From the NCBI GenBank assembly GCA_051047955.1, contig JBPGPT010000001.1, positions 1,116,001 to 1,180,000 on the forward strand: a stretch of DNA of 64,000 bases. Reading direction: 5' to 3'. The DNA comes from Cystobasidiomycetes sp. EMM_F5 (Eukaryota). The notes below the pieces were generated by a model, which was not told the origin of the DNA, ran no database searches, and saw only the letters and a program-made list of their open reading frames with translations. Shown in pieces: positions 46,193-64,000 of this stretch (position 1 is the stretch's first letter; the number at the start of each line of letters is the position of its first letter). The position numbers and the translations under genes are program-made.

Positions 46193-49100
46193 ATGTCGCC
46201 TACTAACGCTACCAGCAATCTCATACGCATAGCCATCGGTAAGTCTGGCGCATACATAACGAGCTAAGTGCCATGGCATTATTGATAGCTGATACGATCC
46301 TCATCCTTCTTCATGCTATCGTTTGATGTACTGATTAGATCGCGGCGGTACTTTTACCGACTTCCATGCTTCTGCATCCGGAAGACCCGATGTCGTGCTC
46401 AAGCTGCTATCCGTGGATCCTCAAAACTACGCAGACGCCCCCACTGAAGGCATTCGCCGCATTCTAGAAGACTTTACAGGCAAGAGCATACCTAGAGGCG
46501 TCAAGATCCCGCTAGACAGCGTCGAAAGCGTTCGTGTCGGTACCACCGTAGCCACTAACGCTCTGCTCGAAAGGAAGGGCGAGCGATGCGCACTATTGGT
46601 TTCGAAAGGCTGCAGAGATGTTCTTAAGATTGGAATGCAGGGCGAGTGGTTTACAGCATCCGTCTAGGAATATAACTCCTGACATCAAGGATCCACACAG
46701 CCCGGCCGGACATCTTTGATTTGTCGATAAAGAAGCTCGGTCTGCTGTATGAACGCGTGGTCGAGCTGGATGAGCGCGTCACACTTGAGGCGGCCGCCGA
46801 AGATCCAAATCAGCCTGATATCAATATAGAGGAGGATACCAATCTCGTAAAGGGGTCCACAGGCGAAGTTGTCCGCATTCTACAGAGGCCGTCGGAATCA
46901 AGCATAAACGCACATCTAGAAGATCTGCAAAAAGACGGCTTCCGCTCTATTGCTCTGGCTCTTCTGCATTCATACACATACCAAGAGCATGAGAGACTCG
47001 TAGCTAAATTAGCTCGCGCAAAAGGCTTTTCCGTTTCAGTTTCCCATGAATTACAACCTCTCATTCGTCTAGTATCGCGAGCAAACTCGACAGTCGCGGA
47101 TTCCTACCTGACACCAATCACGCGACGCTACATCGAAAGTTTTGCGAGCGGATTCGACGGTGGCCTGGAAGCATTCGGAGCCAAACTGTGAGCGTTGGAA
47201 ACAAGACTGCTTTAACACCTGCCTATATCTGACTCTATCGTTGGCAGCCTCCTTATGCAGAGTGACGGGGGCCTTACTACCTGGAATAATTTCACAGGGC
47301 TTCGCGCAGTTTTATCAGGACCAGCTGGTGGAGTGATTGGCTTCTCTAAGACTTGCTTTGACGAGTCGGAGCGCACTCCTCTTATCGCTGTAGATATGGG
47401 TGGTACCTCTACCGATGTCTCTCGATTTGATGGCGAGCTAGATCAGTAAGCGGGAATCCTGCATGATAGCGAGTTTTCGTATATACTGCTCTTTAACACC
47501 AGCGATCCGCAGTACCTTTGAATCTATCACAGCTGAGGTCATCATCTCCGCACCTCAACTCAACATCAATACCGTTGCCGCAGGGGGTGGATCGCGACTC
47601 TTCTGGAGAAACGGAATGTTCATGGTCGGCCCAGAATCTGCATCGGCGCATCCCGGGCCTACGTGCTATCGTAAAGGCGGTCCTCTAGCCATTACCGACG
47701 CTAATCTTCAGCTTGGCAGACTTTTGCCAGACGCATTGTAAGCTCGTTCTACTGATGAAGTATCGACAAGCGTTGTTGCTAACTGTCTCAAACCCTTCTC
47801 GAATACAGCCCGAAGATCTTCGGCCCCAAGGAGAACGAGGCGCTCGACGTAGAAGCGACAAACAAGGCTTTCGTGGACTTGGCGCACACTATCAACACAT
47901 CCAAGGGCGAAGATAGCAGACTATCCGCTGAAGATATCGCTCTCGGATTCCTTAGAGTAGCGGTCGAGGCTATGTGCCGACCAGTCAGATCATTGACGGA
48001 AGCTCGAGGGTATGCAGCTTCAGCACACAATCTTGTTCTCTTCGGTGGTGCAGGAGGTCAAGTCGCGTGTGCGATCGCTCGTACTCTGGGTATTGCAAGA
48101 ATTCTGTAAGTCACGCAAATGGCAATGTGAGCGTGGAAAGCCCGCTGATGCCATCGTTATCATCGTCCGCACGCTTAGTATCCCGCGCTTCTCTTCCATC
48201 TTGAGTGCATACGGTATGGCATTATCGGATGTGACTGTCGACCTGCAGGATGCTGTTCATGCGACGCTGCAGTCAAGCGGCAACAAGGGCCTTCAAGGTC
48301 ACGTCGATTCTCTAACCAAGAGGGCTGTCTCAGCGTTGAAGGACCAAGGCTTCACAGACGACTTCATCAATGTCGAGGTTTTCTTCAATTGCCACTTTGC
48401 GCAAGCCACAACGAACCTCATGATCAAGTTGCAGCCCGGTCTTGATCTTGTAAAAGCCTTCCACGACAAGCATCACGAGCTATTCGGTTTCATCTTGCAT
48501 GGTCGCGATGTCCTCGTCGACAGTGTCCGCGTTCGCGGCGTCGGTCTTGGTCCGTCAAGCGAGACAACAACACCATACGCCGAGCTTGCAACTATCCCCC
48601 TGACCTTGTTCCAAGGAGACTGCAAGAAACACAATGTCTATTTCGAGAAAGTTGGCTGGCAGACGTCCAGACTAATCGCGCTGGATGACTTGTCGCCTGG
48701 TCACCAGGTCCTAGGTCCTGCCATTATCTTCGACAAGACGCAAACTATCTTGGTGGAGCCCGACTTCATTGCAACGACTTTGTCTAAGCATGTCATCCTT
48801 GATAAGCGTGACGACGGTCTTCTTGCCAAAAAAGGCTCGGGTATCACTGGTATCGACTTGGTGCAACTTAGCGTGTTCTCTCATCGGTATGTTTGCGTTC
48901 ATGCAGCAAGCGCGAACTGACCAACTTAAATACTTGTTTGGCAGCTTCATGAGCATTGCCGAGCAGATGGGCGACACGCTGCAGCAGACTAGCATTAGTA
49001 CAAACATCAAAGAGCGTCTAGATTAGTAAGTACAAACAATCGCATACATACGAATTTACCAGCTGATGATGGCTTTACGCGTAAAGCTCATGCGCTCTCT

Positions 49101-50949
49101 TCTCTCCGGACGGTGGCCTCGTTGCCAATGCACCGCACATTCCTGTTCATCTCGGCGCAATGTCAAAGGCAGTGGCCCACCAAGCCGAATACTGGGGAGA
49201 TTCCTTGGAAGAGGGAGACGTGCTTCTCTCCAACCATCCGTATGTTATCTAGTCCATCATCGGGTGCACGGACTGACTTTGCGATGTAGCATCGCGGGAG
49301 GGTCACACCTGCCAGATTTGACGGTAATCACGCCGGCGTTCCACAATGGCAAGATTGTTTTCTGGACAGCCTCGAGAGCGGTATGTACTCACGCTGCGCT
49401 GTTGTATTGGGAAAGCTCATGAGTGTGTGTCCCTCTGTCGTCTTCCACTAGCATCATGCAGATATCGGAGGTGTTCGAGCAGGTAGCATGCCTCCGTCGT
49501 CCAAATACATTTGGCAGGAAGGTGCACAGTTCAAGACGTTCAAACTCGTCAGCAAGGGCCGCTTCCTCGAAAGAGAAGTCGTCAAGGCACTGTCTCACGA
49601 TCCGGCTCAATACCCAGGCTGCAGCGGCACTCGGACGCTCGGAGACAATCTATCCGACTTGCGCGCTCAATGCAGTGCGAACCATCGAGGCGCAATGCTG
49701 ATTCGTGCCTTGGTGCAAGAATTCACCTTGGAGACTGTGCAAAAGTACATGCTGGCTATTCAGGATACTGCTGAGAAAGCTGTCCGAACACTGTTGAAAG
49801 ACTTTTGCAAGAAGTTTGATGGCGCTCCACTCACTGCAGTCGACTATTTGGACGACGGCTCCGAGATCCACCTCAACATTCAGGTAAGAAGATTTGCTGG
49901 CTTGCAGCGAGATTTGCTGATTGTGTTTCCTCACCGCCGCAAGATTGATCGCGAGACCGGTCGAGCTGTTTTCGATTTCACTGGAACTTCCGAACAAGTG
50001 TATGGAAATCTAAATGCACCAACTGCCATCGTGTACTCTGCTATTCTTTACGTTCTGCGGTCTCTTATACATTCTCCGATACCCCTTAATCAGGGCTGCT
50101 TGGCACCCATCAAGATTATAGTACCACCCGGTACCCTGATCTCCCCTACGCACGATGTCGCTACAGTCGCTGGCAATGTCGAGACGTCAGCTCGCCTGGC
50201 GGATGTCATATTGAAGGCCTTCCAAGCCGCCGGAGCATCGCAGGGTACTTGTAACAACTTCACCTTTGGTTACGGTGGAAAGAACCAAACGACGGGAGAG
50301 GTGACACAGGGCTTCGGCTACTACGAGACCATCTGTGGTGGAGCGGGAGCTGGCGAAGGCTGGCACGGGCAAAGCGGGTGCGTAGTGAGGCGCTCCAGAG
50401 AGTCAATACAGTGTGCTGATAATCCCAACAATAGCGTGCATTGTCATATGACAAACACCGCCATCGGAGACACTGAAATCATCGAGAGAAGGTATCCTGT
50501 CATTGTGCACGAGTTCGCTGTGCGGCCAGGGACAGGAGGCAAGGGCAAATGGAACGGCGGATGCGGTGTGATCCGCGACTTCGAGGTGAGTGCAAGAGAC
50601 GAGATGTGACATATTGCAACTCACGAATGATCTGTCATTGCTTGGCAGTTTCGACGAGCAATCGATGTGGCCATCCTGTCCGAACGACGTGTTGTCGCGC
50701 CTTACGGAATGAAAGGAGGTCTCCCAGGACAGCGCGGACTGAATCTATGGATGCGGAAACTAGATGATGGCTCGTATCAGGCTGTCAATGTTTCCGGCAA
50801 GGCTGAATTTACTGTGAAAGTTGGCGACCGCTTCGTCATTAGTAAGTCAAAGACATGCAGCATCACACTGCCCGACACGAGCTGACCTCATCATTTATGT
50901 AGATACGCCAGGAGGCGGTGGATATGGCGCTCCGGAGGGGAAAGAGTGA
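46193..50949 (+). CDS. OXP1: ATP-dependent 5-oxoprolinase (fused hydantoinase A+B type)
   Basis: [118 protein letters not shown] and TPGGGGYG. Many short introns. Confidence 0.95.
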
Positions 50950-51324
50950 TTGCGACACAGTTGGTCATGAGAAACAGACGAAGTGTATGGGTGTAGAAAG
51001 CGTAGCTTCAGTATGCCGAATGATTTGCAGTAGACTAGTCAAAGCAGGGATTAGGATTAGTGGCGCGTTCCGTGTATGTATCCCGTTTCAATGTTAGCGA
51101 ATCCTCAAAGTTATCTGTCGATTCTATGTTGCTGCATGAAACGATGTCGATACAACAGGTAGTACACCAAGAGGCGGATGCGGGAATAGACATGATTCAT
51201 AGTGCAGGATGAACGCGTGCGCGCGTCGATAGTAATCATACAGAAAGCAGAAAAATGACGAAGCCGTCCAGTGTTTGCTAAGTATGCCGTCTCTGTAGAT
51301 GAGGCGGTCACTAGAGGCGATCGC

Positions 51325-52863
51325 TCAATGTCTGTTTGGAGCTGATCCCGGTATGAACTCATACGACTCCTCCTGAGTGGGCTGGAAAGCAAAGAGCTGT
51401 GCCAGCTTGCGATACTCGTCATCATCCTGAACGAGCTTGAAGTTTGCAAGCGCAAACGTTCTATCCTCGCTCTGTTCCACCTTCCTCATAGCGCGCTGCT
51501 CATTCTCCAGTTTGGATTTAGCGACGCCAGCCTTGTCAAAGTCTGATGATCGGATACCGTCTGCGACATCCTTCCACACTCTACGACTCTCCATGCTTCC
51601 CTGCTCCGAGATGGATGCTACTTGAATTTGATGACGACTGGCAGAATCGTCTTCACCAGTAGCATCCGTGAAGATGGGGTTGGACTCGTACTGTCGAATA
51701 CTCGACTTGACAAACTTTGAAAGCCCAGTCCATTGTCCCTCGATAATATGAGCAGCGGAAGCGGCAGGATGCGGCGACACATTTGCGACAAACCGATGGG
51801 CAGCACCGCTCAGGTAGCCCTTGCCCTTGTAGGTGATTGCAGCGTGGTAGCCCGACGAGGACTGGATAAAGGACTGTTCGATGAGCTCGACGCTGCAGTG
51901 ACAGATAGGCTTTAGTATAGGGCATGGAGATGAGCAAGTCACAAAGGAACGCACTAAGGACTTCCAAAGAGCAGACCGTCGATTCGTAGTTTTGGAAGTG
52001 TGATGAGGTACGACTCGTCTTTACCGTCTGGCGTCTTGATGGACACGATGGCGTGTCCAACCTGTTTGACCATGATGCTCTTTCCTGAAAACGACGTCTT
52101 TTGAGCAAAGTGACCCGTCACCTTTACCTTCTTTTCCACGTTTTCCAGCTTGAAGGCGGTAATGGGCGGATGGTGTGATACCTGTTCGGCAGCGAGGTCG
52201 AGTCGTCCAGTCGAGGGAGATGAAAAGTAGCCGTAGAATTGCTCGCCGAGAATGGGATTCAGTGGCTTCTTTTCGCTGCCCGTCGTTGTTTCCCGACGGG
52301 TGTAAGAGCCCTGTAGAGAATATAAAATGCCGAGTGTGAGAATCTCCATACAAACGAGTTTGACTTGGACATACCTTCAAGGTTGCAATGAACCATTTGA
52401 GCGTCCTGAGCATTCGTTCCTCTGGCGTGGACCCCGCTGAAATAGCGGCCAGCTCATCACACGGTTCGCCCCAGTCTGCAAAACAAATGTGCATTAGCTG
52501 ACGAACACGGACACTCGACACTCGGACAGAGACGCCTCACAGGCACTGAATTCGACGAGGGAAGTGGGCGAGAGAATGAAGGAGGGGGCCGTCATTGACG
52601 AAAGGTCGCCCGTCATGCTTGCCAGGCTGTGTGGCGAGTTGTCCACACCACGAGTGACGAGAAATGTCAGCTGCCTGCTTCCGACGACGTCGAGCATAAC
52701 GCACGACTTTATGAATGATGTCCATGACCCTTTCTGTGAGCGCAGGGATGGATGCGAGCAGTCAGGATATATCAATCCGAGCGAGCATGTACATGACACT
52801 CTGCTGCATGCTCGTTTGACCTACCTGCGCCTGGGGAACTGCGCCTGCGTCCTGTTCCGACAT
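51325..52863 (-). CDS. Oxysterol-binding protein, short ORD-only Osh4/Kes1 type
   Basis: SWTSFIKSLASMTGDLSSMTAPSFILSPTSL, SEKKPLNPILGEQF, signature EQVSHHPP and KSKLENEQRAMRK. Confidence 0.93.
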
Positions 52864-53998: not shown

Positions 53999-55135
53999 AT
54001 GGCAAAGGCAGCATCCGATAAAGCAGCAAAGGTGAGCACCGTCCACTCTCGTCTGTCTGGGCTGCGTGCAGAGGCTACGCGTCGTCGCGTCGAGGGGTGC
54101 ACGACAAACAACAACAACAACAACAACAACAAAACAAACAGATATGGACAGGGGAATACATTATACTGATGCATTTTTATCCTTGCGTTGGTGACAGGGC
54201 TCTAAGAGTGGGTAGAGGGTACACCGTCAAATGGACGTGCGTCGTGTCGGATCATGGCTGAATGAAACCTACTACGTCTCGCTCAACCCAGGCAAGAAGG
54301 ACAAGGACGTGAGTAGCACTGTCATCGTCCATCGTGCAGTGAACTGTGTCTGACCACTCCACACGCAAAACAGCCAAATGCACCAAAGCGGGCTCAATCC
54401 GCCTACTTGATCTTTTGCAACGAGAATAGGGTGGGTTCACTAGCGTTTGTTTGTGAAAAGGAACGTGCAGGCTGATTTCCGCTCGCTTGTTCTTGACATG
54501 CTTTGCCCGCCCCGTCTTTACGGTCTCTCTTCTACGCTGTGCTCTGTCCTGTCCTGTCGCTGGTGTTCTGTCGCTGTCGCGTTTCTCCGTTCTTTCGCCG
54601 TACCTCATCCCCCGTTGTCTGTCCGGATGCTGATTTTACTCGCATCTGTTCCGCTGTCCCTTCCGCATATTCAACTCCAACCCGTTCACCTCTCCTTGTT
54701 GACTGATTCCCTTTCCACCCGTTCCCCGTCCTTTCGTTGGTTATCATTCCCCCTCGATTCCTGTCCTCTCGCTCGACCCATTCTGCATACAATTGCACCA
54801 CCCGGCCCCCTTGCCATCCATTACATCCATCTCTACACCTTCTGCCTTGGCCTGTGTCACTTCTCCTCCAATTCTCCACGACCACCACAGCCAATTGTCA
54901 AGGAGGAGAATCCCGAAGCGTCATTTGGTGAAATGGGCAAATTGCTAGGAGCAAAGTGGAAGGAGTTGGCCGATGAGGGAAGGAAGGTAAGGATTGACAT
55001 TGGCGCTCATCCATTCGCTCGCAGTGTATACGACTGATGACTGTCATTTGGCACACATAGACGTACGAGCTCAAGGCGGCCGAGGAGAAGAAGAGATATG
55101 ATTCCGAGATGGCGGCTTACAAGACCAAGGAATGA
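53999..55135 (+). CDS. NHP6: HMG-box non-histone protein Nhp6 (six coding exons)
   Basis: Spliced MAKAASDKAAK|GSKS|KKDKD|PNAPKRAQSAYLIFCNENR|PIVKEENPEASFGEMGKLLGAKWKELADEGRK|TYELKAAEEKKRYDSEMAAYKTKE*. Confidence 0.93.
54107..54130. repeat. (AAC)8 microsatellite in the first coding-region intron of NHP6
   Basis: Eight perfect AAC units. Confidence 0.95.
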
Positions 55136-56116
55136 AGAGCGACGTCTCTCTGTCTCTGATTTTGCGTGTGTGCACCTGCTCTGTCACAATCGGATCCTGC
55201 AGCACGTGCCGCGCATTGTCTGTGTACACATCAGCACCGCTTAATAGCAATCATCTATCGAGGCGGCCGCAACGCCTTACGTCCCCTTTCGAATCTTTCT
55301 ACAAGTCCTTTCCCCCTTTTCATCATCTGTCGTGACTCGACTTTCAACCCATTTTTTAAGTTTACCCATACTACCCATCGGCGTGTTGTCTTTTGTGTCC
55401 CGAGGCGCCTGGCCGGGTTTGCGAAAACGATGAAGGGCTGTGCTGTCTGTTGTAATTTTCTGCAGTGGAAAGAAGCACATTTAGGTCTACATGGTACTTG
55501 AGCTGGGTTCCCGCGCTGCGACTGAAACTGCCAAATTATCGATAAGCGACTTGCTTTTTAGGTATCAGGCCTTCAAGTGAGGCAGAGCGCAACGTCCCAT
55601 AGAGGAAAGCCGCATAATGAAGCAAGAGGCGAAAATGAAGAATTTGGTCTCGCGAATGAGCAAGTGTCTTGAGTTTTCTTCTGCGCGTCTGTCATACAAC
55701 GCAGTTTGATGGTCTATGGGAAGGCCTGCTGGGTACAGTAGCAGAGTAATGACTGCTCTGACTTGCACGAGCGCTTGCGCAGTAGCAAAGCGGAGGAAAA
55801 TTCGGGTGAACAGTAATTTTGCACATCCTCGGTGCACAAAAGAAGAAAGTAAGAGGCTTTTGCAATGAAGGAAAGGTAGGTATCTGGGTCGGCCAACCGC
55901 TCCAGTATGACCACTTATGAGGTTTTCGAAGCTCGTTATTTTGTACATCTTCCGCTTGCGGCCTTGTTTGTATCTGCGTGCATCCATTGCCCGCTCAATC
56001 TTATAGGGAAAAGGGGCATGTCTCGTTTCGTTTCGTTGTGGCAATTGTTGACTTTGGATTTGCAATAGGGCATCCATTCAGTGCCCGATTTGATGTTTGC
56101 GAGTGTTGAGGGTGCA

Positions 56117-59100
56117 CTACTCAACATCATCGAGCGCGTTTGTCACCGGAGCAGATGAATCGTTCTGTGTGCGTCCGGCAGCGTGCTCGTCACGCGTGAT
56201 CTCGGCAGTGCTCTGCTCTGTGCTCGTCACAGCTTTGCTAGACTCCTCTTCCTTATGCTCCGCCAGCTGTCTTTGACAGGCGGCACAATCGCAGTCGAAG
56301 AGGTATGTATTTCGCAGGACAGACCGCCTGATCTCGACTGGAGCTGACGGAGACACGTAGGAGATGGCTGTTGTGACACATTACAAGAGAAGGTAGATTA
56401 ATATGGAGTATATACCAAGATCAAGTCGGCGCAACGCACTGATTTCTTCGCCAGGCGCAATATCTTTGATGGCAACAACGTAGATTCGGCTTGGCTTGGC
56501 TTCTCGTGCACCGTGGTTGTTGAGCGAGGGTGTTCGCTTGACGATGGCATTGGCCTCGCATCTGCAAAGAGGGTAAACCACAGGTGTCAGTGATTTACGG
56601 CAAAGAGCCTTTCAAAGGAATAGAGGCATACGCGTGGTTTAAGCAGGGATGCAAAAAGTAAATTCCTCCGTCATCCTCTTGGTTGAGTGCAACTCTGCCT
56701 AGCCAGATGAGGAAGTTGTCAAATCCGAATATCTTGTCTACCAATTCCTGCGGCACTTCGGCATTCCTGAGCCATGCTGGAACTGCGCTGGTCCGTTGAA
56801 CCGTCTTGCCTGGGAGGGATGGAGCCTGAGTATCGGCGTCCTCGTCGTGTGCATCGGCGTCCAAGGCAGTAGACGAGTCTGTGGCTGGCTTGTAGTATTT
56901 CGCTGGTAGTTGAAGAGCCTCCATGACGAGCCTGTGAGCGATGATCCACTCGCTAGCCCACTGCAAGTCTGCGATCATTTGCATCTCGCGAGAGCGTCGT
57001 AATCGCTCACTGATGCCAGAAAGGCATTCGATACGCCGCAAAAGGGTCTGTGCAGACGATGTCTGACCATCGGCATCCGTCTTTACAGTTGTGAAACCAT
57101 CGCGGACTGCAGTGACGAGCAGTCGGAGGTAAATCTTGAAAACTCCTAGAACATTTTGCTTGCCATTCTTTGACTCTTGCCCTTCGCTCCAGGCAAGCAA
57201 GGCTGCGTAAGAGGGGTTGACGAGGGGACACGTCAGGGAAGCGTAATTTTCGGTGTCTGAACACACATCATTCAAATTCAGCTGCTTGCTATCAAGAGGC
57301 GATCGAGATTGTTCTCTGACCCACTTCGATCTCTACACAGCTTATTACAAAACCTCACGTGGCACTTCTTCTTGTCCTTCTCCTCCATTGTTGGCGCGTC
57401 GCCGTTTGCGACCGGACTCTCTGGTGACTGCTTATCCTTGGTCGCTACAGCCGACGATGATGGTTCGGACGGTTTTTGCTTCTTGAGCATGGCGCTTGGT
57501 TTCTTTTTCGGTTGCGGTACCTTACGCGTTCCGGATGCTGAGGAGGTAGAAGCTGAGTTTGAAGTTGATGATGCAGAAGATGGGAGGGAGTCGTGCGATG
57601 TGCAGGGAACGATGAGGGCAGAGACCTTGCCCAGGAAGAGCTTGCCGCAGTATCCGCATGCCTGTCCCTCATTGACAGCAGATTGAATGGTCTTGGTGGG
57701 CGCGAATACGAATGCCTCTCTGATGAAAGAGAACAGACATACGTCAATCAAGTGCCGTTGCGCTTGTAGGCATATCACTCACTCTTTGAAGATGACTGTA
57801 CTGCGTTTGAAGCCGTTGTTGGAGATTACGCCCTTACCCTTGACTTCATCGAACCAGTGAAGCGATAATTGACCGGTTGTTTTCTCATCGGCCTCTACAG
57901 ACTGACCTGGCAAGCTTTGGGTGACGGCGTTGATTGCTGAAGAGACCGCGTCTGAGACGGTATTGACTACACTTCCCGCTACTGCCTGCGCTTGCTCTTG
58001 AAGCGATTGACCATTCTTTTTTGACTTTTTCTTGTTTTTCGATGGTGGAGGGACGACTGGACTCAGGTTTTCTTTGTCGGTATCTGAGCCGAGAGCAGGT
58101 GAATCTGTGATTGGCCTGCTCGCAAACCCTTCCTGACCGTTTTTGGGGGTCTTTACGACTGGACTGGAGATGAGCGGAGAAGTAGGGTTGGTATCCAAAC
58201 CATCGGTCTGCAGCATACGAACGAGTTCGTCGTCCATTTTTGAAACGGGCACAAAACCATCAGACTGTGCTGGACCAGTGATATGAGCGAGTCGGAGAAT
58301 TCTGTCAGCTTCCGCCATTCCTCCGTCGTGGGATTCGTCCTTGACGACTCGGCGTAGACGTTTTTCAGAAATGGACCATGAAGGGTACGCTTCCCTAATC
58401 CTGTCTAGAATTTTCAAGATACCGGGCGCTGTTGCGGTAGACTCATTGTTGCCGGCGCCCTGCAGCCGGATCAAACGGTATGAAAGGGCGACTTGTAGAT
58501 CATCTGGCGTCACACTGCTTGCAGGCACCGCGTTGGCTTCTGCCTTCTTTTCGGGAATCTCGTCGTTCACCTCATGGAACCGTGGACCGTCATCGCCTTG
58601 CAGACTACTCGCAGCGATAGCCGCTCTCACAGCAGCCGTATTACGTCCGTCGATAGCTTCGTATGCTTTCTGTGCTTGTAAGAGGTATCTTGACGGGAAA
58701 GCAGTACGGAGAACATCAAGATGACGGAGGTGGGACAGCTGTGAGAGATTGTACGTAAAGAAGTTTTGACCGTTTGCATTCGGAAGGTTGCTGCTTGGAA
58801 AGGGGTGGCCATTCTCGCCTCCCTCCCCACGGGCGTTGCCAAGGAGTTGAGCTATTGTTGCTGGAATATCGGGCTGTTCCTTGTCTGATGACGCGGAGAT
58901 GGCTGCGTTTGGGGATCCAGATGGTTCTCCTGCTGGCGCGGCTTCTGAGCTGTTTGGGTCTTGGGCTGCGCTCGCTGTGGACGTGGATGCGGGGTCGGGT
59001 TTCGATTGATTGATTTGCGGAATGGATTCTGGTTTACTCGGGACTGAGGAGGAGTACACACAATCAAAGGATCAGTCCACATATCTTCCCTGTGCAGCCG

Positions 59101-59593
59101 CAATTGATGGTTTCTAAAGTCTGCCCACCTTTGAAGACATTGTTGACGTTTCCAGCGTCGTCTGACGTTGTGGGCTGATCTGTCGCATGTTGCCATTTAC
59201 CATCGACGACAAACTAACCCACCACCATACACAACATGACAAACGGCCAGCGGGAATGGGAATGACGAGCATCAGACGTGCCGATTAATTGAAAAAAAAG
59301 GTTGCATCCCACTACCCACCTTGTACTTTATCTCGTGCTCCTGGCCTGCTGCGTACGGCACCTCGATAGGCTGCCTCCATACCCCGTCCTCGCCCTTTGC
59401 GAGCTGCACAGTCCCCTTCCAGTCGTCAAAATCGCCGGTGCATACGACAGACGCTGCGTCGATGCCGGACCTTTTATAGTGGAGTGAAAATGAGGAATGG
59501 CAGGAGCGGTGCACGGTCAGCATGCGATATATATCCACCCTCTAGACGGGCATCAACCCACCACTCTATCGTGTGACGGTAGGTCGCAGCCAT
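56117..59593 (-). CDS. SET-MYND (Set5/SMYD-like) lysine methyltransferase with an N-terminal CBM48 (AMPK-beta-type glycogen-binding) domain
   Basis: Exons 1-3 read MAATYRHTIEW|SGIDAASVVCTGDFDDWKG..EIKYK|FVVDGKW..DDAGNVNNVFK and splice in phase into ORF 57779-59059. Then KGKGV, CGYC..CHVRFCNKLC, LNHACEANA, KDIAPGEEITISYV and post-SET FDCDCAAC. Confidence 0.85.
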
Positions 59594-60217
59594 TACGAAG
59601 GTGTGTATTATTTTGTGCAAGTTTGCAAGCAGCGCTGTGCGAGCAGGATATCGATGTAGGCTGTGTGCGTGTTTGAAAGACTCGTCGACGAGGTCTGCTG
59701 AAGTTACGAGCGAGTTTTGAATTTTCTGAATGATGACTGGGTAAGCAGGTCACTCTATGCTATAGACCGAGGACTACCAAAGTAGTTGCAGCAGTCACAG
59801 GTCTCGGCAATAATAATGATCTCGTCATCATTTGCGTAGTATAAGTACAGCACACTCTGCAATAACATTGTATCTATTGCTAGACGTTGAAGCAGAATAC
59901 GTTAGACAAAAAAGTAGGTGGAGTTGGAGTCCAAGTACCTGGCTGAATGGATAAATGTGGGTCTACGTCCTGCACTGGGAACCACTCTTAACCTTCTGCT
60001 GCTCCAATCCAAGTCGCAAATCATCCAGGACCAACTTGCACTTCCGCGTCTTGTTGGCCATACAATTTGTTTTTCCCTTCCACCACTCCAAGTCAACGCG
60101 ACATCCAGCAACAACATCGAGCTTCACACCCATCAGAGGCTGCACACTGTCCACCCCGTCGCCCATCGTATACTCACCCACCCGCAATCGCACTACCTGA
60201 TTAAAAATACCCAGAGA

Positions 60218-63200
60218 ATGGCCGCCTCGACGAGCAACGTCGTGTCGCTGCTGCAGAACGGGCTGGCTCAGGATGCAGCTACGCGTACAGCTGCTGGGAG
60301 TGCCCTCGAAGCACTGCAGGCCTCCGACTACCCCTCGTATCTCCAGGCCATGGCCAGCATCCTCGCAGGCGACGACCATCCCTCGACGGCGAGAAACGGT
60401 GCTGGGCTGGCAATAAAGAATGCCCTCTATGCAAAGGAGCAGGCTACCCAGGACGTGAATGCGAGGAGGTGGAGGGAGGCTATTGACGACACCGTCCGAA
60501 ACGCAGTAAAGGAAGCCTCACTCGCGACCCTCTCGTCAAACGATAGGGCAGCGAGAAACGTAGCTGGACAGGCAGTCGCTGCCGTCGCGAGACTCGAGCT
60601 CGCACAGTCTACTCAGCCATGGCCCCAGCTCATCCCGTCCCTCTTGTCCGCCGTGACTCTGCCCACCTCCACTCCTCAACTGCGTCAAGCTGCACTACAA
60701 GCGCTGGGATTTGTGTGCGAATCAGTGGTGAGTCGGTAGCCTTTCGCTCCAAGTATCGAAATTTCACCAACTCCCTCTTTTCATTTCGCAGCGGCCTCAG
60801 GTCCTAGCGCCCCAGTCCAACGAAATTTTGACGGCAGTAGTCCAAGGAGCGCGAAAAGAGGAGCCTTCGACAGATGTACAGCAAGCAGCCTTGCAAGCAC
60901 TTTTGAATTCCCTCGACTTTATCCGGGACAATTTTACACGAGAGGTCAGTATCTTACACTTTGGGCTTTATGGATGTTTTCTTGTGCTGAGATGTCGCTA
61001 CTGCTCGCTCGTCGACAGGGCGAGAGAAATTACATCATGCAAGTTGTGTGCGAGGCGACGCAGTCGACTGTGCCGGAGATCCAAGTCACAGCGTACGAAT
61101 GCCTAGTCAAGATTATGCAGCTGCACTACGACAAGATGCGAGTGTACATGGAGCGTGCGCTGTTCGGGGTGAGGATTCAGGTCACTCAGCCTTGATCTCG
61201 TACTGATGCTGCCTCGTTCTTCCAGCTCACGACCCTTGGCATGAAATCCGAAGACGAGAATGTAGCGTTGCAAGCTGTAGAGTTTTGGTCTACCGTCTGC
61301 GAGGAAGAGATGGATATTGCTCTCGAGCACGACGAGCTAGACTATGACGGCGGAGCGAATGGCGATGCTGGATCTGGACAGAGGCAATCGTTCAACTTTG
61401 CCAAACTAGCTCTTCCAGAGATCTTACCAGTCATTCTTCAACTCCTCACAAAACAAGACGAGGACGCGTCAGTGGACGACTGGAATGTATCTATGGCCGC
61501 TGGAACGTGCCTCACTCTTCTCGCACAGACGGTAGCAGACGCAATCGTCGTGCCCATTATACCGTTTGTCGAACAAAATATCCGAAATTCAGATTGGCAC
61601 TTTCGGGAAGCGGCAGTCATGGCTTTTGGCTCAATTCTCGATGGACCAGATGCAAAACTCCTGTCACCACTCGTCGCTCAGGCGTTACCTACCCTCATCG
61701 AGATGATGTCGTCGGAACCCGATGTGCACGTAAAGGATACAACTGCGTGGTGCTTAGGCCGCATCTCGGATGTCCTAGTGGAGACTATCAAGATTGATAT
61801 ACACCTTCCCGGGCTGGTGCAAGCCCTAGTCGCCGGAATGGCGGATTCGCCTCGTATCGTCGGAAACTGCTGCTGGGGAATCATGAACCTAGTCGAACAG
61901 ATTGGTGGCGCAGAAGGAGATACTAATCCCATGAGCCCCTTCTACGAGGGTCTGGTGCAAAGTCTTTTGACTGCGGCAGAACGGTATGTCTAAGGTTGTT
62001 CGATGAGTCAACAAGGATCTATTCTGACGTGAAGTATTCCGCAGCGACTCGAACGACGCGAACCTGAATGTACGAGCACCAGCATACGAAGCTCTATCCA
62101 CTCTCGCCACTCACTCTGCAAACGATACCTTACCAGCCGTCTCGAAGCTGTTGCTAACCATACTCGACCGGTCTGAACAGCTTCTGGGCATGCAAAACCA
62201 GATTGTGTCGTCGGATGACCGCAACAAGTACAATGAGCTACAAATCAGCTTTTGTGGCGTGCTGAATGCCATTGTCCGACGTCTCGGCAAGCAAATTCGA
62301 CCGTTAAGCGATAGAATCATGAACCTTCTCCTACTTCTCATTCAATCGTCTGCTCGTTCTTCTCCTATCCTCGAAGATGCTTTCCCGTGCGTTGGTACTA
62401 TGGCAAGTACCCTCGAAGCCGATTTTGCGCCATATGTCCCTCCTTTCCTCCCCTTCCTTGCGAATGCTCTTGCAGCTCACGAAGAGTATACTCTGGTAGG
62501 CACCGGCGTAGGTCTCGTTGGCGATATTTGCAGAGCTCTCGGCGAGGCTGCCCAGCCTTACGTCGAGGCCTTTTTGAGCGCGCTAGTTATGGATCTGCAG
62601 TCCTCTGTCCTGCATCGATCGGTCAAACCACCCATCTTTGCGTGTTTCGGAGATATCGCTTTGGCCGTGGGTGCCAATGGCTTTGAGCCGTACGTCGAGG
62701 CGACAATGTCCGTCCTCGCTCAGGCAGGCGGTATGCGAGCAGATCCTACAAACTACGATATCATCGAGTATGTCAATGTACTGCGAGAGGGCCTCATGGA
62801 AGCGTATACTGGCATCGTCGGTGCCTTCAAGCAGACGCCAAAATGTAAGTAATCCACGTCGGATGCCGTGGTACATGGGCTAATCGCGCTCATCGCATCG
62901 CATAGCCCCACTCCTCATTCCCTACATGCCAACCATATTCGCCTTTTTGCATATCGCTCTGACGGATCCTGAACGTTCAGAAACGATTGTCAAGTCTGGC
63001 GTCGGTCTCATTGGCGATTTGGCATCTGAGTACCAAAAAGGCGAAATTCGCGAACCGTTGATATCAGAATGGGTTCAGGAGAGCATAAAATCTGCAAGGA
63101 CCCGCAGCGGAAGTCAGGAGATCAAGGCGCTTGCCAAATGGGCAAAGGAGGTATGTCATGATGTGAAGAACACGGTATGTACAATCTGATGCTGTTCTCG

Positions 63201-63235
63201 TAATTTCACAGATGGTGCGGATAGCAACCAGATAG
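60218..63235 (+). CDS. KAP95: Importin beta-1 (karyopherin beta, Kap95)
   Basis: [93 protein letters not shown] and [11 protein letters not shown]. Confidence 0.95.
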
Positions 63236-64000
63236 CCGGACCGCGTGCCTTTATGCCATTCTTCCCATACACCAACACTTGTAATTCTCTTGCACTCTCA
63301 TCATGGGACTCTCTAATCACGCAGCCTTCGTCAATTTCCGCAACATCTTACACCTATAGACAACGTCGGTATGGACAGGCAATAGACTCTTCGACAAAAC
63401 ACCCTCTCCTGACGGGACCGGGCGACACTCGAAGAACGCGTCCTCACATCTCAGGACTCTACATAGCGATTGCACTGCTTGTACATCGCATAACCAGTCC
63501 AATTGGCTATTCCTCAATAGAGAGCCCATCAGCATCCCTCCACTGTAGCAAGGCTTTCACGCAACATCGTGTGTATCACCAGACAGTAAAACGACAAGCA
63601 GCCGACTAACGGTCCATTCTGCCAAACATTTACGAAAATATCCTTCTTGTCGTGGACTGTATCCAGCAAGAATACGCCCCGCGAAAAGCTCAACAGCCGG
63701 TTCATTAAAGAGACCGCAGCCGAGTGTACGCCTCAGATGAGTTTGACGCCAGCATCGCGTACTACTCCCCTTCATTTTCACATCTTTCGCTTTCGCTTTC
63801 TCCCTGCAAGGTGCCTTGCAGGCTTCCCCTTCGTCCGGTCCGCTAGTCTCTACTACCGAGCCTCCGTGCAGCCAATACATTTGGCTACTATCACGCTAGC
63901 GGCGAAAAAGGCATGCATCGTGGGCGGACGAACAGGACACTGACTGAGGTCATCTGGACAAGGTGCCTCCTTCTTGTTCAGCCGACGCACCTCGGGTGTG

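What the first reader, a model, noticed from the sequence alone, without database searches (positions are those of the whole stretch)
56117..59593. Glycogen-binding CBM48 domain fused to a Set5/SMYD lysine methyltransferase
Seen: three 5' exons encode a complete AMPK-beta-type CBM48 (W..VVCTGDFDDW..W..YKFVVDGKW..GNVNN). The third exon ends AAA G|gtgggc and the next acceptor gives ctcag|TC CCG, so the phases match. From there the frame is open through a low-complexity linker into the Set5-like N-terminal helical segment (..YPSWSISEKRLRRVV) and the SET-MYND-postSET core. There is no stop that would end a separate CBM48 gene. Established: this CBM48 type occurs in Snf1 beta subunits and Crp1/Mdg1, and I do not know it from SET proteins. 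Inference: a methyltransferase targeted to glycogen particles or regulated by carbohydrate, or a lineage-specific gene fusion.
Basis: partly seen in the sequence, partly recalled or inferred. Interest (0 to 1): 0.7.

Follow-up and report, generated by a model that had tools for sequence, protein, structure and literature searches.

The report
Fungal methyltransferase with glycogen-binding module
In this basidiomycete fungus the Set5-type protein-lysine methyltransferase gene begins with three extra exons that encode a glycogen-binding module, a combination I did not find described, which could tie protein methylation to the cell's sugar stores; it is so far seen in one genome and untested.

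Summary
Eight exons (minus strand, 59593-56117) with seven GT-AG introns give one 973-aa frame: AMPK1_CBM/CBM48 (aa 1-90), a linker, a winged-helix-like Set5 N-domain, and a MYND-split SET core with post-SET. The linker scores as coding and has no in-frame ATG, and none of 115 alternative single-intron entries has both a consensus donor and a branch site. So the CBM48 exons are the only good source of a start codon. One correction: retaining intron 3 would give a 110-aa CBM48-only product. The module shares two intron positions with the genome's separate, intact Crp1/Mdg1-like gene, so it derives from that family, not from Snf1-beta. AMPK W100/K126/W133 equivalents are kept; L146 is Ala and T148 is Asn. 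This is the genome's only Set5-like gene. None of 7 long homologues (5 named basidiomycetes) carries a CBM48, and literature searches found no such fusion. No transcript and no close relative's 5' end could be examined. Best reading: a lineage-restricted fusion that tethers the methyltransferase to glycogen, most likely as a location switch. New variant of known parts; interest 0.5.

The parts
59562..59593 (-). Exon 1: ATG and first strand of the CBM48 (aa 1-11, Trp11 codon split by intron 1)
59471..59561 (-). Intron 1, 91 nt, phase 2, donor GTGGGT
59320..59470 (-). Exon 2: CBM48 aa 11-61 with Trp28 (AMPK W100 equivalent by motif) and Lys61 (K126 equivalent)
   Evidence: PF16561 14.4 bits, PF02922 15 bits
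59214..59319 (-). Intron 2, 106 nt, phase 0; same position as in the Crp1/Mdg1-like paralogue L003
59129..59213 (-). Exon 3: CBM48 aa 62-90 with Trp68 (W133), Ala81 (L146), Asn83 (T148), Asn85 (N150)
   Evidence: PF16561 33.6 bits, over cut-off; aligns to AMPK beta-1 residues 127-153 and to LSF1
59044..59128 (-). Intron 3, the fusion junction: 85 nt, phase 1, donor GTGGGC, branch-like CTGAT, 73% pyrimidine before the AG; holds a TGA at 59066-59064 if retained; same position and phase as in L003
57783..59043 (-). Exon 4 (aa 90-510): linker, Set5 N-domain, insertion, first SET strands
58502..59041 (-). Linker aa 91-270, Ser/Pro/Ala-rich, coding, no Met; aa 185-240 weakly predicted helical and of unknown origin
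58328..58501 (-). Set5 N-terminal three-helix domain (aa 271-328), helix-turn-helix/winged-helix-like, conserved in basidiomycete homologues, no Pfam match
58016..58039 (-). Lys-rich stretch aa 425-432, possible nuclear localisation signal (inference)
57830..57838 (-). SET motif I G-x-G (aa 492-494)
   Evidence: conserved in 7 of 7 long homologues
57720..57782 (-). Intron 4, 63 nt
57325..57719 (-). Exon 5: MYND-like zinc finger (C531, C534, C549, H552, C629, C634, C638) split by a 76-aa Ser/Lys/Pro insertion
   Evidence: no Pfam zf-MYND hit
57257..57324 (-). Intron 5, 68 nt (best of five stop-free options)
56632..57256 (-). Exon 6: last MYND Cys (C651), SET-I helices, SET core to the N848-H849 motif
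56562..56631 (-). Intron 6, 70 nt
56440..56561 (-). Exon 7: SET core C-terminal strands
   Evidence: PF00856 18.5 bits, E 0.0028, under the cut-off as a single exon
56368..56439 (-). Intron 7, 72 nt
56117..56367 (-). Exon 8: catalytic Tyr894, post-SET CxCxxC (916-921), acidic tail, stop
59594..60217 (.). 624-bp non-coding stretch shared with the divergent importin-beta gene; no room for another first exon set upstream

Best explanation
One gene makes a 973-aa Set5/SMYD-type protein-lysine methyltransferase that has gained an N-terminal Crp1/Mdg1-type CBM48. SHOWN (DNA): exon structure, phases, coding linker, lack of another good start, intact SET motifs, single copy. STRONGLY INFERRED: the module came from a second copy of a Crp1/Mdg1-like gene whose first exons were joined to the Set5 gene; the parent-type gene survives elsewhere in the genome. 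INFERRED from known families: the CBM48 stacks on alpha-1,4 glucan through Trp28, Lys61 and Trp68, probably more weakly than AMPK beta (Ala at the L146 position), and sits on a flexible 180-residue tether. The SET/MYND/post-SET core binds SAM and zinc and methylates lysines. MOST LIKELY USE (inference): a location switch. Glycogen particles hold part of the enzyme in the cytosol when stores are full and release it to chromatin (winged-helix domain, Lys-rich signal) when they are spent. My odds: fused protein is the main product 0.87; module binds glycogen if so 0.7; location switch rather than targeting to particle proteins or no role, about 0.4 of those.
For: 973-aa model with 7 of 7 GT-AG introns, each with a GTRNGY donor and a branch-like site. 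Linker coding. First Met after Met1 is Met332, downstream of the conserved N-domain. No unspliced entry; 3 of 115 single-intron alternatives have a consensus donor and 0 of 115 also have a branch site. Introns 2 and 3 match those of paralogue L003 in position and phase, and both exon 4s open with Val-Pro; the Snf1-beta gene L001 is uninterrupted there. Three AMPK1_CBM matches in the genome: Snf1-beta, Crp1/Mdg1-like, this gene. Mixia SET5 gives 7 matches in the genome, 4 of them collinear in this gene. K126/W133/N150 equivalents by alignment to AMPK beta-1; binding residues named in PMC2642990. Yeast Crp1 co-localises with glycogen synthase and the Atg45 PF16561 half sediments with glycogen (PMC11145338). 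No N and no duplicated DNA at the junction.
Against: No transcript seen. Intron 3 holds an in-frame stop, so a CBM48-only product is possible. Met332/359/366 could start a catalytically complete enzyme, and homologue P0012 lacks the N-domain. Two of five named AMPK binding residues differ (L146 to Ala, T148 to Asn), and L146A weakened binding in AMPK. Yeast Sip1, Sip2 and Gal83 carry PF16561 yet did not co-localise with glycogen synthase. The donor consensus was drawn from these same introns and their paralogues, so that filter is partly circular. The 5' ends of the five closest relatives (P0001-P0005, fragments) are unknown. Nothing here separates the location-switch model from targeting to particle proteins.
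Confidence: 0.6

Rival explanations
1. The fusion is real and the module targets the enzyme to substrates on the glycogen particle (glycogen synthase, phosphorylase, branching enzyme, Snf1), making it a metabolic, non-histone methyltransferase.
For: Same anatomy as the best explanation. SMYD enzymes methylate histone and non-histone proteins (abstract of PMC9967872). Human SMYD3 co-precipitates with AMPK (PMC9039736), a loose parallel only.
Against: The conserved winged-helix-like domain and Lys-rich stretch are kept. Yeast Set5 is an H4K5/K8/K12 enzyme (PMC9692433). No substrate evidence either way.
Confidence: 0.2
2. The fusion is real but recent or passive: two neighbouring genes (a second Crp1-like gene and Set5) merged by loss of the DNA between them, and the module has no joint function with the enzyme.
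For: Seen in one genome only. The module is only 29% identical (28 of 96) to its paralogue, so its conservation may date from a life as a separate gene. GC3 differs along the gene (0.68 CBM, 0.49 linker, 0.50 Set5 N-part, 0.59 SET part).
Against: The key aromatic residues are intact, and the linker no longer resembles the paralogue's proximal tail (best tblastn E 0.9 against L003), which suggests age. The GC3 values rest on few codons.
Confidence: 0.15
3. Two products from one locus, not a fusion: a 110-aa CBM48-only protein (intron 3 kept) and a SET enzyme from an internal start.
For: In-frame TGA inside intron 3; internal Met332/359/366; P0012 shows a homologue without the N-domain.
Against: It leaves 240 open, coding-biased codons and a conserved folded domain untranslated. 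0 of 115 alternative entries pass both splice filters. None of five poly(A)-like hexamers occurs in intron 3 or the linker (weak evidence in fungi). The junction matches the paralogue's.
Confidence: 0.1
4. The module serves as a protein- or DNA-contact domain, not a glycogen anchor (yeast Crp1 is named for cruciform-DNA recognition; recalled, no call).
For: Some PF16561 proteins do not co-localise with glycogen synthase; two binding positions differ from AMPK.
Against: Both stacking tryptophans and the lysine are kept. As I recall, Crp1's DNA binding maps to a Lys-rich stretch next to the module, which is absent after this module (aa 91-184 composition).
Confidence: 0.1
5. Assembly chimera.
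For: No read-level check was possible.
Against: 1.2-Mb contig, no N, even GC, unique DNA, a well-formed intron at the junction and a continuous coding signal.
Confidence: 0.02

Closest known systems
Fungal Set5 (UniRef-named SET5 of Mixia osmundae, Melampsora larici-populina, Tilletiaria anomala; S. cerevisiae Set5, an H4K5/K8/K12 methyltransferase)
   Same: N-terminal three-helix domain, G-x-G motif, SET split by a MYND-like finger, N-H motif, catalytic Tyr, post-SET cysteines; 23-33% identity over aligned stretches to the Pucciniomycotina homologues.
   Different: N-terminal CBM48 plus 180-aa linker, absent from 7 of 7 long homologues; longer insertions at aa 366-480 and 553-628. Not compared directly with S. 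cerevisiae Set5.
Crp1/Mdg1-type CBM48 proteins (yeast Crp1, Mdg1; paralogue L003/L006 in this genome)
   Same: N-terminal PF16561 module followed by a low-complexity tail; two shared intron positions and the same first residues after the module.
   Different: The tail runs into a methyltransferase instead of ending as an Ala/Thr/Ser/Pro/Lys-rich region; the module is 29% identical to L003.
AMPK/Snf1 beta-subunit glycogen-binding domain
   Same: PF16561; W100, K126, W133 and N150 equivalents kept; couples a catalytic regulator to glycogen in principle.
   Different: No beta-subunit C-terminal part; other intron positions than L001; L146 is Ala, T148 is Asn; fused directly to its enzyme.
Atg45 (yeast glycophagy receptor)
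   Same: N-terminal PF16561 module shown to bind glycogen on its own (PMC11145338).
   Different: Atg45 is 189 aa with an Atg8-binding motif and no enzyme. Three loose W/F/Y-x-x-I/L/V matches lie in this linker, which is not evidence of that role.
Animal SMYD1-3
   Same: SET core and post-SET; close relative P0004 hits SMYD1/3/2 structures at E 7e-7 to 2.5e-3.
   Different: No TPR-like C-terminal domain apparent here (48-aa acidic tail); no carbohydrate module in SMYDs (recalled).

Membership tests
AMPK1_CBM / CBM48 (PF16561) | Profile match over the curated cut-off | tested here: met
   Exon 3 alone 33.6 bits vs 26.8; exon 2 adds profile positions 11-43
AMPK1_CBM / CBM48 (PF16561) | Glycogen-contact residues W100, K126, W133 | tested here: met
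   K61 and W68 by alignment to AMPK beta-1 127-153; W28 by the G-x-F-x-x-W motif (mapping recalled)
AMPK1_CBM / CBM48 (PF16561) | L146 and T148 contact residues | tested here: not met
   Ala81 and Asn83; Asn at the second position also in plant LSF1
AMPK1_CBM / CBM48 (PF16561) | Binds glycogen or cyclodextrin | not testable with these tools
   needs a pull-down
Snf1/AMPK beta subunit | C-terminal alpha/gamma-binding domain after the CBM | tested here: not met
   No such Pfam match in exons 4-8; L001 has the beta-subunit-type C-terminus (identification recalled)
Crp1/Mdg1-like | N-terminal CBM48 with the family's exon pattern | tested here: met
   Introns 2 and 3 shared with L003
Crp1/Mdg1-like | Remainder is a low-complexity tail without an enzyme | tested here: not met
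   Continues into a SET enzyme
Set5/SMYD lysine methyltransferase | SET motifs: G-x-G, N-H, catalytic Tyr | tested here: met
   G492/G494, N848/H849, Y894; PF00856 on exon 7, 18.5 bits
Set5/SMYD lysine methyltransferase | SET split by a MYND zinc finger | tested here: inconclusive
   Cys pattern aligns with homologues, but Pfam zf-MYND is not hit here or in 14 proteins scanned, and a His seen in several homologues is Tyr646
Set5/SMYD lysine methyltransferase | Post-SET CxCxxC | tested here: met
   aa 916-921
Set5/SMYD lysine methyltransferase | Orthology to proteins named SET5 | tested here: met
   Best named hits include UniRef SET5 entries; Mixia SET5 maps collinearly to this gene only. The names are automatic.
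Set5/SMYD lysine methyltransferase | Orthology to S. cerevisiae Set5 itself | not tested
   The yeast sequence was not fetched
Set5/SMYD lysine methyltransferase | Methylates H4K5/K8/K12 or other lysines | not testable with these tools
   needs an assay

The most novel reading that the evidence does not exclude
A clade of Pucciniomycotina yeasts has turned its Set5 histone methyltransferase into a direct glycogen sensor: glycogen particles bind the enzyme through a borrowed CBM48 and control its access to chromatin, wiring stored carbon to histone methylation in a single polypeptide.
Probability: 0.2. Interest if true: 0.8.

Novelty: new variant of a known kind. Interest (0 to 1): 0.5.

Why it matters
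Both parts are well known, but I found no SET-domain enzyme with a glycogen-binding module in the searches named. If the module binds glycogen, the protein is a one-gene test case for whether glycogen particles can govern lysine methylation directly. The reported link between nuclear glycogen and chromatin runs through acetyl-CoA and histone acetylation (abstract starts of 10.1101/681833 and PMC13632743). It could also point to non-histone substrates of the little-studied fungal Set5/SMYD enzymes, and it is a clear exon-level record of domain capture from a Crp1/Mdg1 gene. If it proves private to one species and functionless, it is a curiosity.

Tried and rejected
Transcripts: no RNA holder was listed for 55900-59900, so no reads were laid; this is no evidence either way. 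Full-length fused relatives: three word-index protein searches found nothing. These are weak: one search also missed P0008-P0010, which lie in its length range. Seven ATG-started pieces are not in the collection by exact look-up (0 of 7). Related loci: 0 of 179 pattern matches in metagenome contigs and 0 of 97 in prokaryote genome contigs were relatives. The importin-beta neighbour gave 1 locus from 40 matches (L005), which ends about 190 bases upstream of its start and does not reach a neighbouring gene. ESM Atlas: no hit at 0.9 or more for exon 4 or exon 6. Foldseek on aa 180-370: no match at E 0.001; VIA best Z 7.5, rmsd 3.1, 75 aligned, with many winged-helix proteins at Z 5-6.4, a middling result. 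aa 175-250 has no other match in the genome and no Pfam match below E 0.1. P0011 (repeat protein, spurious) was dropped from the homologue set. Earlier scan findings: none by place, sequence or the full word set; one search gave only bacterial CBM48 fusions. PMC6944473 (Set5 localisation) is not held. Rejected: Snf1-beta identity (other introns, no C-terminal domain); a separate upstream gene for the SET start (624 bp to importin-beta, non-coding score); the 170-aa ORF 55565-56077 as part of the gene (55500-56100 scores negative in three minus frames).
Full report
Setting. The window is G000:C1:1116001-1180000 of an 18.3-Mb, 253-contig genome, about 51% GC. The best named homologues of the gene are from Atractiella, Mixia and Melampsora, so the organism is most likely a Pucciniomycotina basidiomycete. 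In a tree of the SET part (17 sequences, exon 6-8 columns; P0011, P0015 and P0018-P0022 left out) the window groups with five unnamed fragments, P0001-P0005, apart from all named species (support 0.993). A Cystobasidiomycete yeast is my guess; no call shows it.

Gene model. Eight minus-strand exons (59593-59562, 59470-59320, 59213-59129, 59043-57783, 57719-57325, 57256-56632, 56561-56440, 56367-56117) translate to 973 aa with one terminal stop. All 7 introns are GT-AG, 63-106 nt, with a GTRNGY donor and a YTRAY branch-like site 12-65 nt before the AG. Only 239 of 3734 GT dinucleotides on this strand fit that donor pattern; the pattern was read from these and paralogous introns, so the test is partly circular. 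Five of 20 boundary pairs for intron 5 are stop-free; the chosen one aligns to homologues without a gap. One statement needs correcting: a TGA inside intron 3 would end a 110-aa CBM48-only protein if the intron were kept.

Is it one gene? Three results say so. First, the linker (aa 91-270) is coding. A fourth-order codon-position model was trained on four fifths of 97 long ORFs from 245 kb of this genome outside the gene. It scores the linker 0.051 in frame, above 155 of 155 wrong-frame controls and at or above 30 of 31 held-out pieces; 0 of 256 off-frames stay open for 180 codons, and the upstream intergenic stretch scores negative. Second, exon 4 has no Met before Met332, which lies after a domain conserved in homologues (aa 271-328). 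There is no unspliced entry. Of 115 possible single-intron entries from any other ATG between 60215 and 58502 (introns 45-250 nt), 3 have a consensus donor and 0 also have a branch site; multi-intron routes were not enumerated. Upstream lie only the CBM48 exons and 624 bp to a divergent importin-beta gene. Third, the junction itself is ancestral to the module's family, as shown next. Against: no transcript was available, and homologue P0012 shows that an enzyme without the N-domain can exist, so an extra internal-start isoform is not excluded. An assembly chimera is unlikely: no N, even GC, and no second copy of 58400-60200 in the genome.

Where the module came from. The genome has three PF16561 matches. 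L001 has the layout of a Snf1 beta subunit (identification recalled). L003/L006 is a CBM48 followed by a long Ala/Thr/Ser/Pro/Lys-rich tail, the Crp1/Mdg1 layout. The third is this gene. L003 has introns at the same two places as introns 2 and 3 here (phase 0 after Tyr-Lys, phase 1 in the Val codon that ends the module), and in both genes the next exon opens Val-Pro; L001 is uninterrupted there. The two modules are 29% identical (28 of 96, E 6e-14), and the linker has no similarity to the L003 locus (best E 0.9). So the first exons of a second Crp1/Mdg1-type gene were joined to the Set5 gene, and the two modules diverged long ago. Whether the joining is equally old is not shown.

The module. 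Exon 3 passes the PF16561 cut-off alone (33.6 vs 26.8 bits), exon 2 covers profile positions 11-43 weakly, and exon 3 aligns to AMPK beta-1 residues 127-153 and plant LSF1. PMC2642990 (passages) names W100, K126, W133, L146 and T148 as contact residues. Here they are Trp28 (by motif; mapping recalled), Lys61, Trp68, Ala81 and Asn83: 3 of 5 kept. L146A reduced but may not abolish binding in AMPK, so binding here may be weaker. In yeast, Crp1 and Atg45 co-localise with glycogen synthase but Sip1, Sip2 and Gal83 do not, and the Atg45 module sediments with glycogen (PMC11145338, passages). The domain therefore often, not always, anchors a protein on glycogen; this one belongs to the branch that does.

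The enzyme. G492/G494, N848-H849, Tyr894 and the post-SET cysteines are present, and relative P0004 hits SMYD1/3/2 structures. The MYND-like cysteines align with homologues, but Pfam does not call the finger, a 76-aa insertion splits it, and a His seen in several homologues is Tyr646. Mixia SET5 gives 7 matches in the genome, 4 collinear in this gene and 3 single segments elsewhere; exon 6 has no second match. So this is the only Set5-like gene, and any Set5 function must come from it. The N-domain folds as three confident helices (pLDDT 70-94 for piece residues 81-150; mean 60.9 overall, 6-sequence alignment) and resembles winged-helix proteins at middling Z (5-7.5; no Foldseek hit). Yeast Set5 methylates H4K5/K8/K12 (PMC9692433, passage) and interacts with chromatin (PMC10100857, passage); I did not compare the yeast sequence.

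How it probably works. Shown: anatomy. Inferred: the CBM48 on its flexible tether binds glycogen particles and the SET core methylates lysines. I favour a location switch, in which glycogen holds the enzyme in the cytosol and releases it to chromatin as stores fall, because the chromatin-type features are kept and this is the only copy. Targeting to particle proteins is a close rival, and a passive fusion remains possible. Odds: fusion is the main product 0.87; binds glycogen if so 0.7; switch model about 0.4 of those. The 0.6 given for the best explanation is for the glycogen-tethered fusion; the listed rivals overlap with it in part.

Novelty. The 50%-cluster library gave 17 hits for the exon-6 frame. 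Of 14 of them scanned with Pfam, 0 carry PF16561; the CBM part finds nothing among all 23 fetched proteins (best E 0.92). Seven are long homologues (P0007-P0010, P0012-P0014; five named), and none has the module; P0013 may be cut at its 5' end. The five closest relatives are fragments that do not reach the N-terminus, so the range of the fusion is open. Other database searches were blank but weak. Literature: 'CBM48 + SET domain + methyltransferase' gave 3 unrelated plant papers (listing). The PF16561/AMPK1_CBM/SET/PF00856 search gave 63 papers with at least two terms; none of the 20 listed contains a CBM term. (listings) showed nothing on such a fusion. Three fungal SET surveys have no CBM or glycogen term in the main text for the terms tried: PMC9692433, PMC2474616 (glycogen and carbohydrate only), PMC12581908. 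Supplements of PMC12581908 (10 files; its figure PDF was unreadable) and PMC9692433 (1 file) have no CBM, AMPK1, PF16561 or Cystobasidi term, so these surveys probably did not sample the clade. InterPro, CDART and MycoCosm were not searchable, and automatic gene models with this architecture may exist there.

Verdict. Observation confirmed; interpretation partly supported. A probably genuine, lineage-restricted domain fusion of two known parts, with a testable link between glycogen and lysine methylation, known from one genome and without RNA support. New variant of a known kind; interest 0.5.

Noticed in passing
window 60218-63250 (+): Importin beta-1 (KAP95-like; IBN_N, TPR_IMB1) lies head to head with the fusion gene, 624 bp between start codons.
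   Followed up: partly
window 58328-58501 (-): The N-terminal domain of basidiomycete Set5 homologues has no Pfam match and is predicted as a three-helix winged-helix-like fold; possibly an undescribed chromatin-contact domain.
   Followed up: partly
window 58592-58759 (-), aa 185-240: A Leu/Ala/Arg-rich, weakly helical segment inside the linker with no counterpart in homologues or elsewhere in the genome; unexplained.
   Followed up: partly
L003:1044-1981 (-) / L006:4815-7424: Crp1/Mdg1-like paralogue; in my model its first strand lacks the Trp seen at position 11 here, or its true first exon lies further upstream. It has two introns in the module that the window gene lacks.
   Followed up: partly
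window 57325-57719 and 57872-58216 (-): Two long Ser/Pro/Lys-rich insertions (inside the MYND finger, and before the first SET strand) exceed those of all 7 long homologues; possible phosphorylation-regulated regions.
   Followed up: no
P0010, P0007, P0006: These homologues (P0010 is Melampsora) lack the N-H motif at the position of an intron in the window gene; probably faulty gene models, not dead enzymes.
   Followed up: no
window 54890-54990 (+): HMG-box exon (PF00505, E 1.7e-4), of a small Nhp6-like gene converging on the fusion gene (the name is recalled).
   Followed up: no
window 55565-56077 (-): 170-aa ATG ORF directly after the stop; the region scores non-coding, probably 3' UTR and intergenic DNA.
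   Followed up: partly
window 46676-52820: Oxoprolinase/hydantoinase gene (+) and oxysterol-binding protein gene (-), ordinary neighbours.
   Followed up: no
L005: A metagenome importin-beta gene 72% identical to the window's appears to lack several of its introns (contiguous tblastx blocks).
   Followed up: no
G000:C1:180144-180421 (-): A PF02922 CBM_48 match elsewhere on the contig, presumably glycogen branching enzyme; not checked.
   Followed up: no
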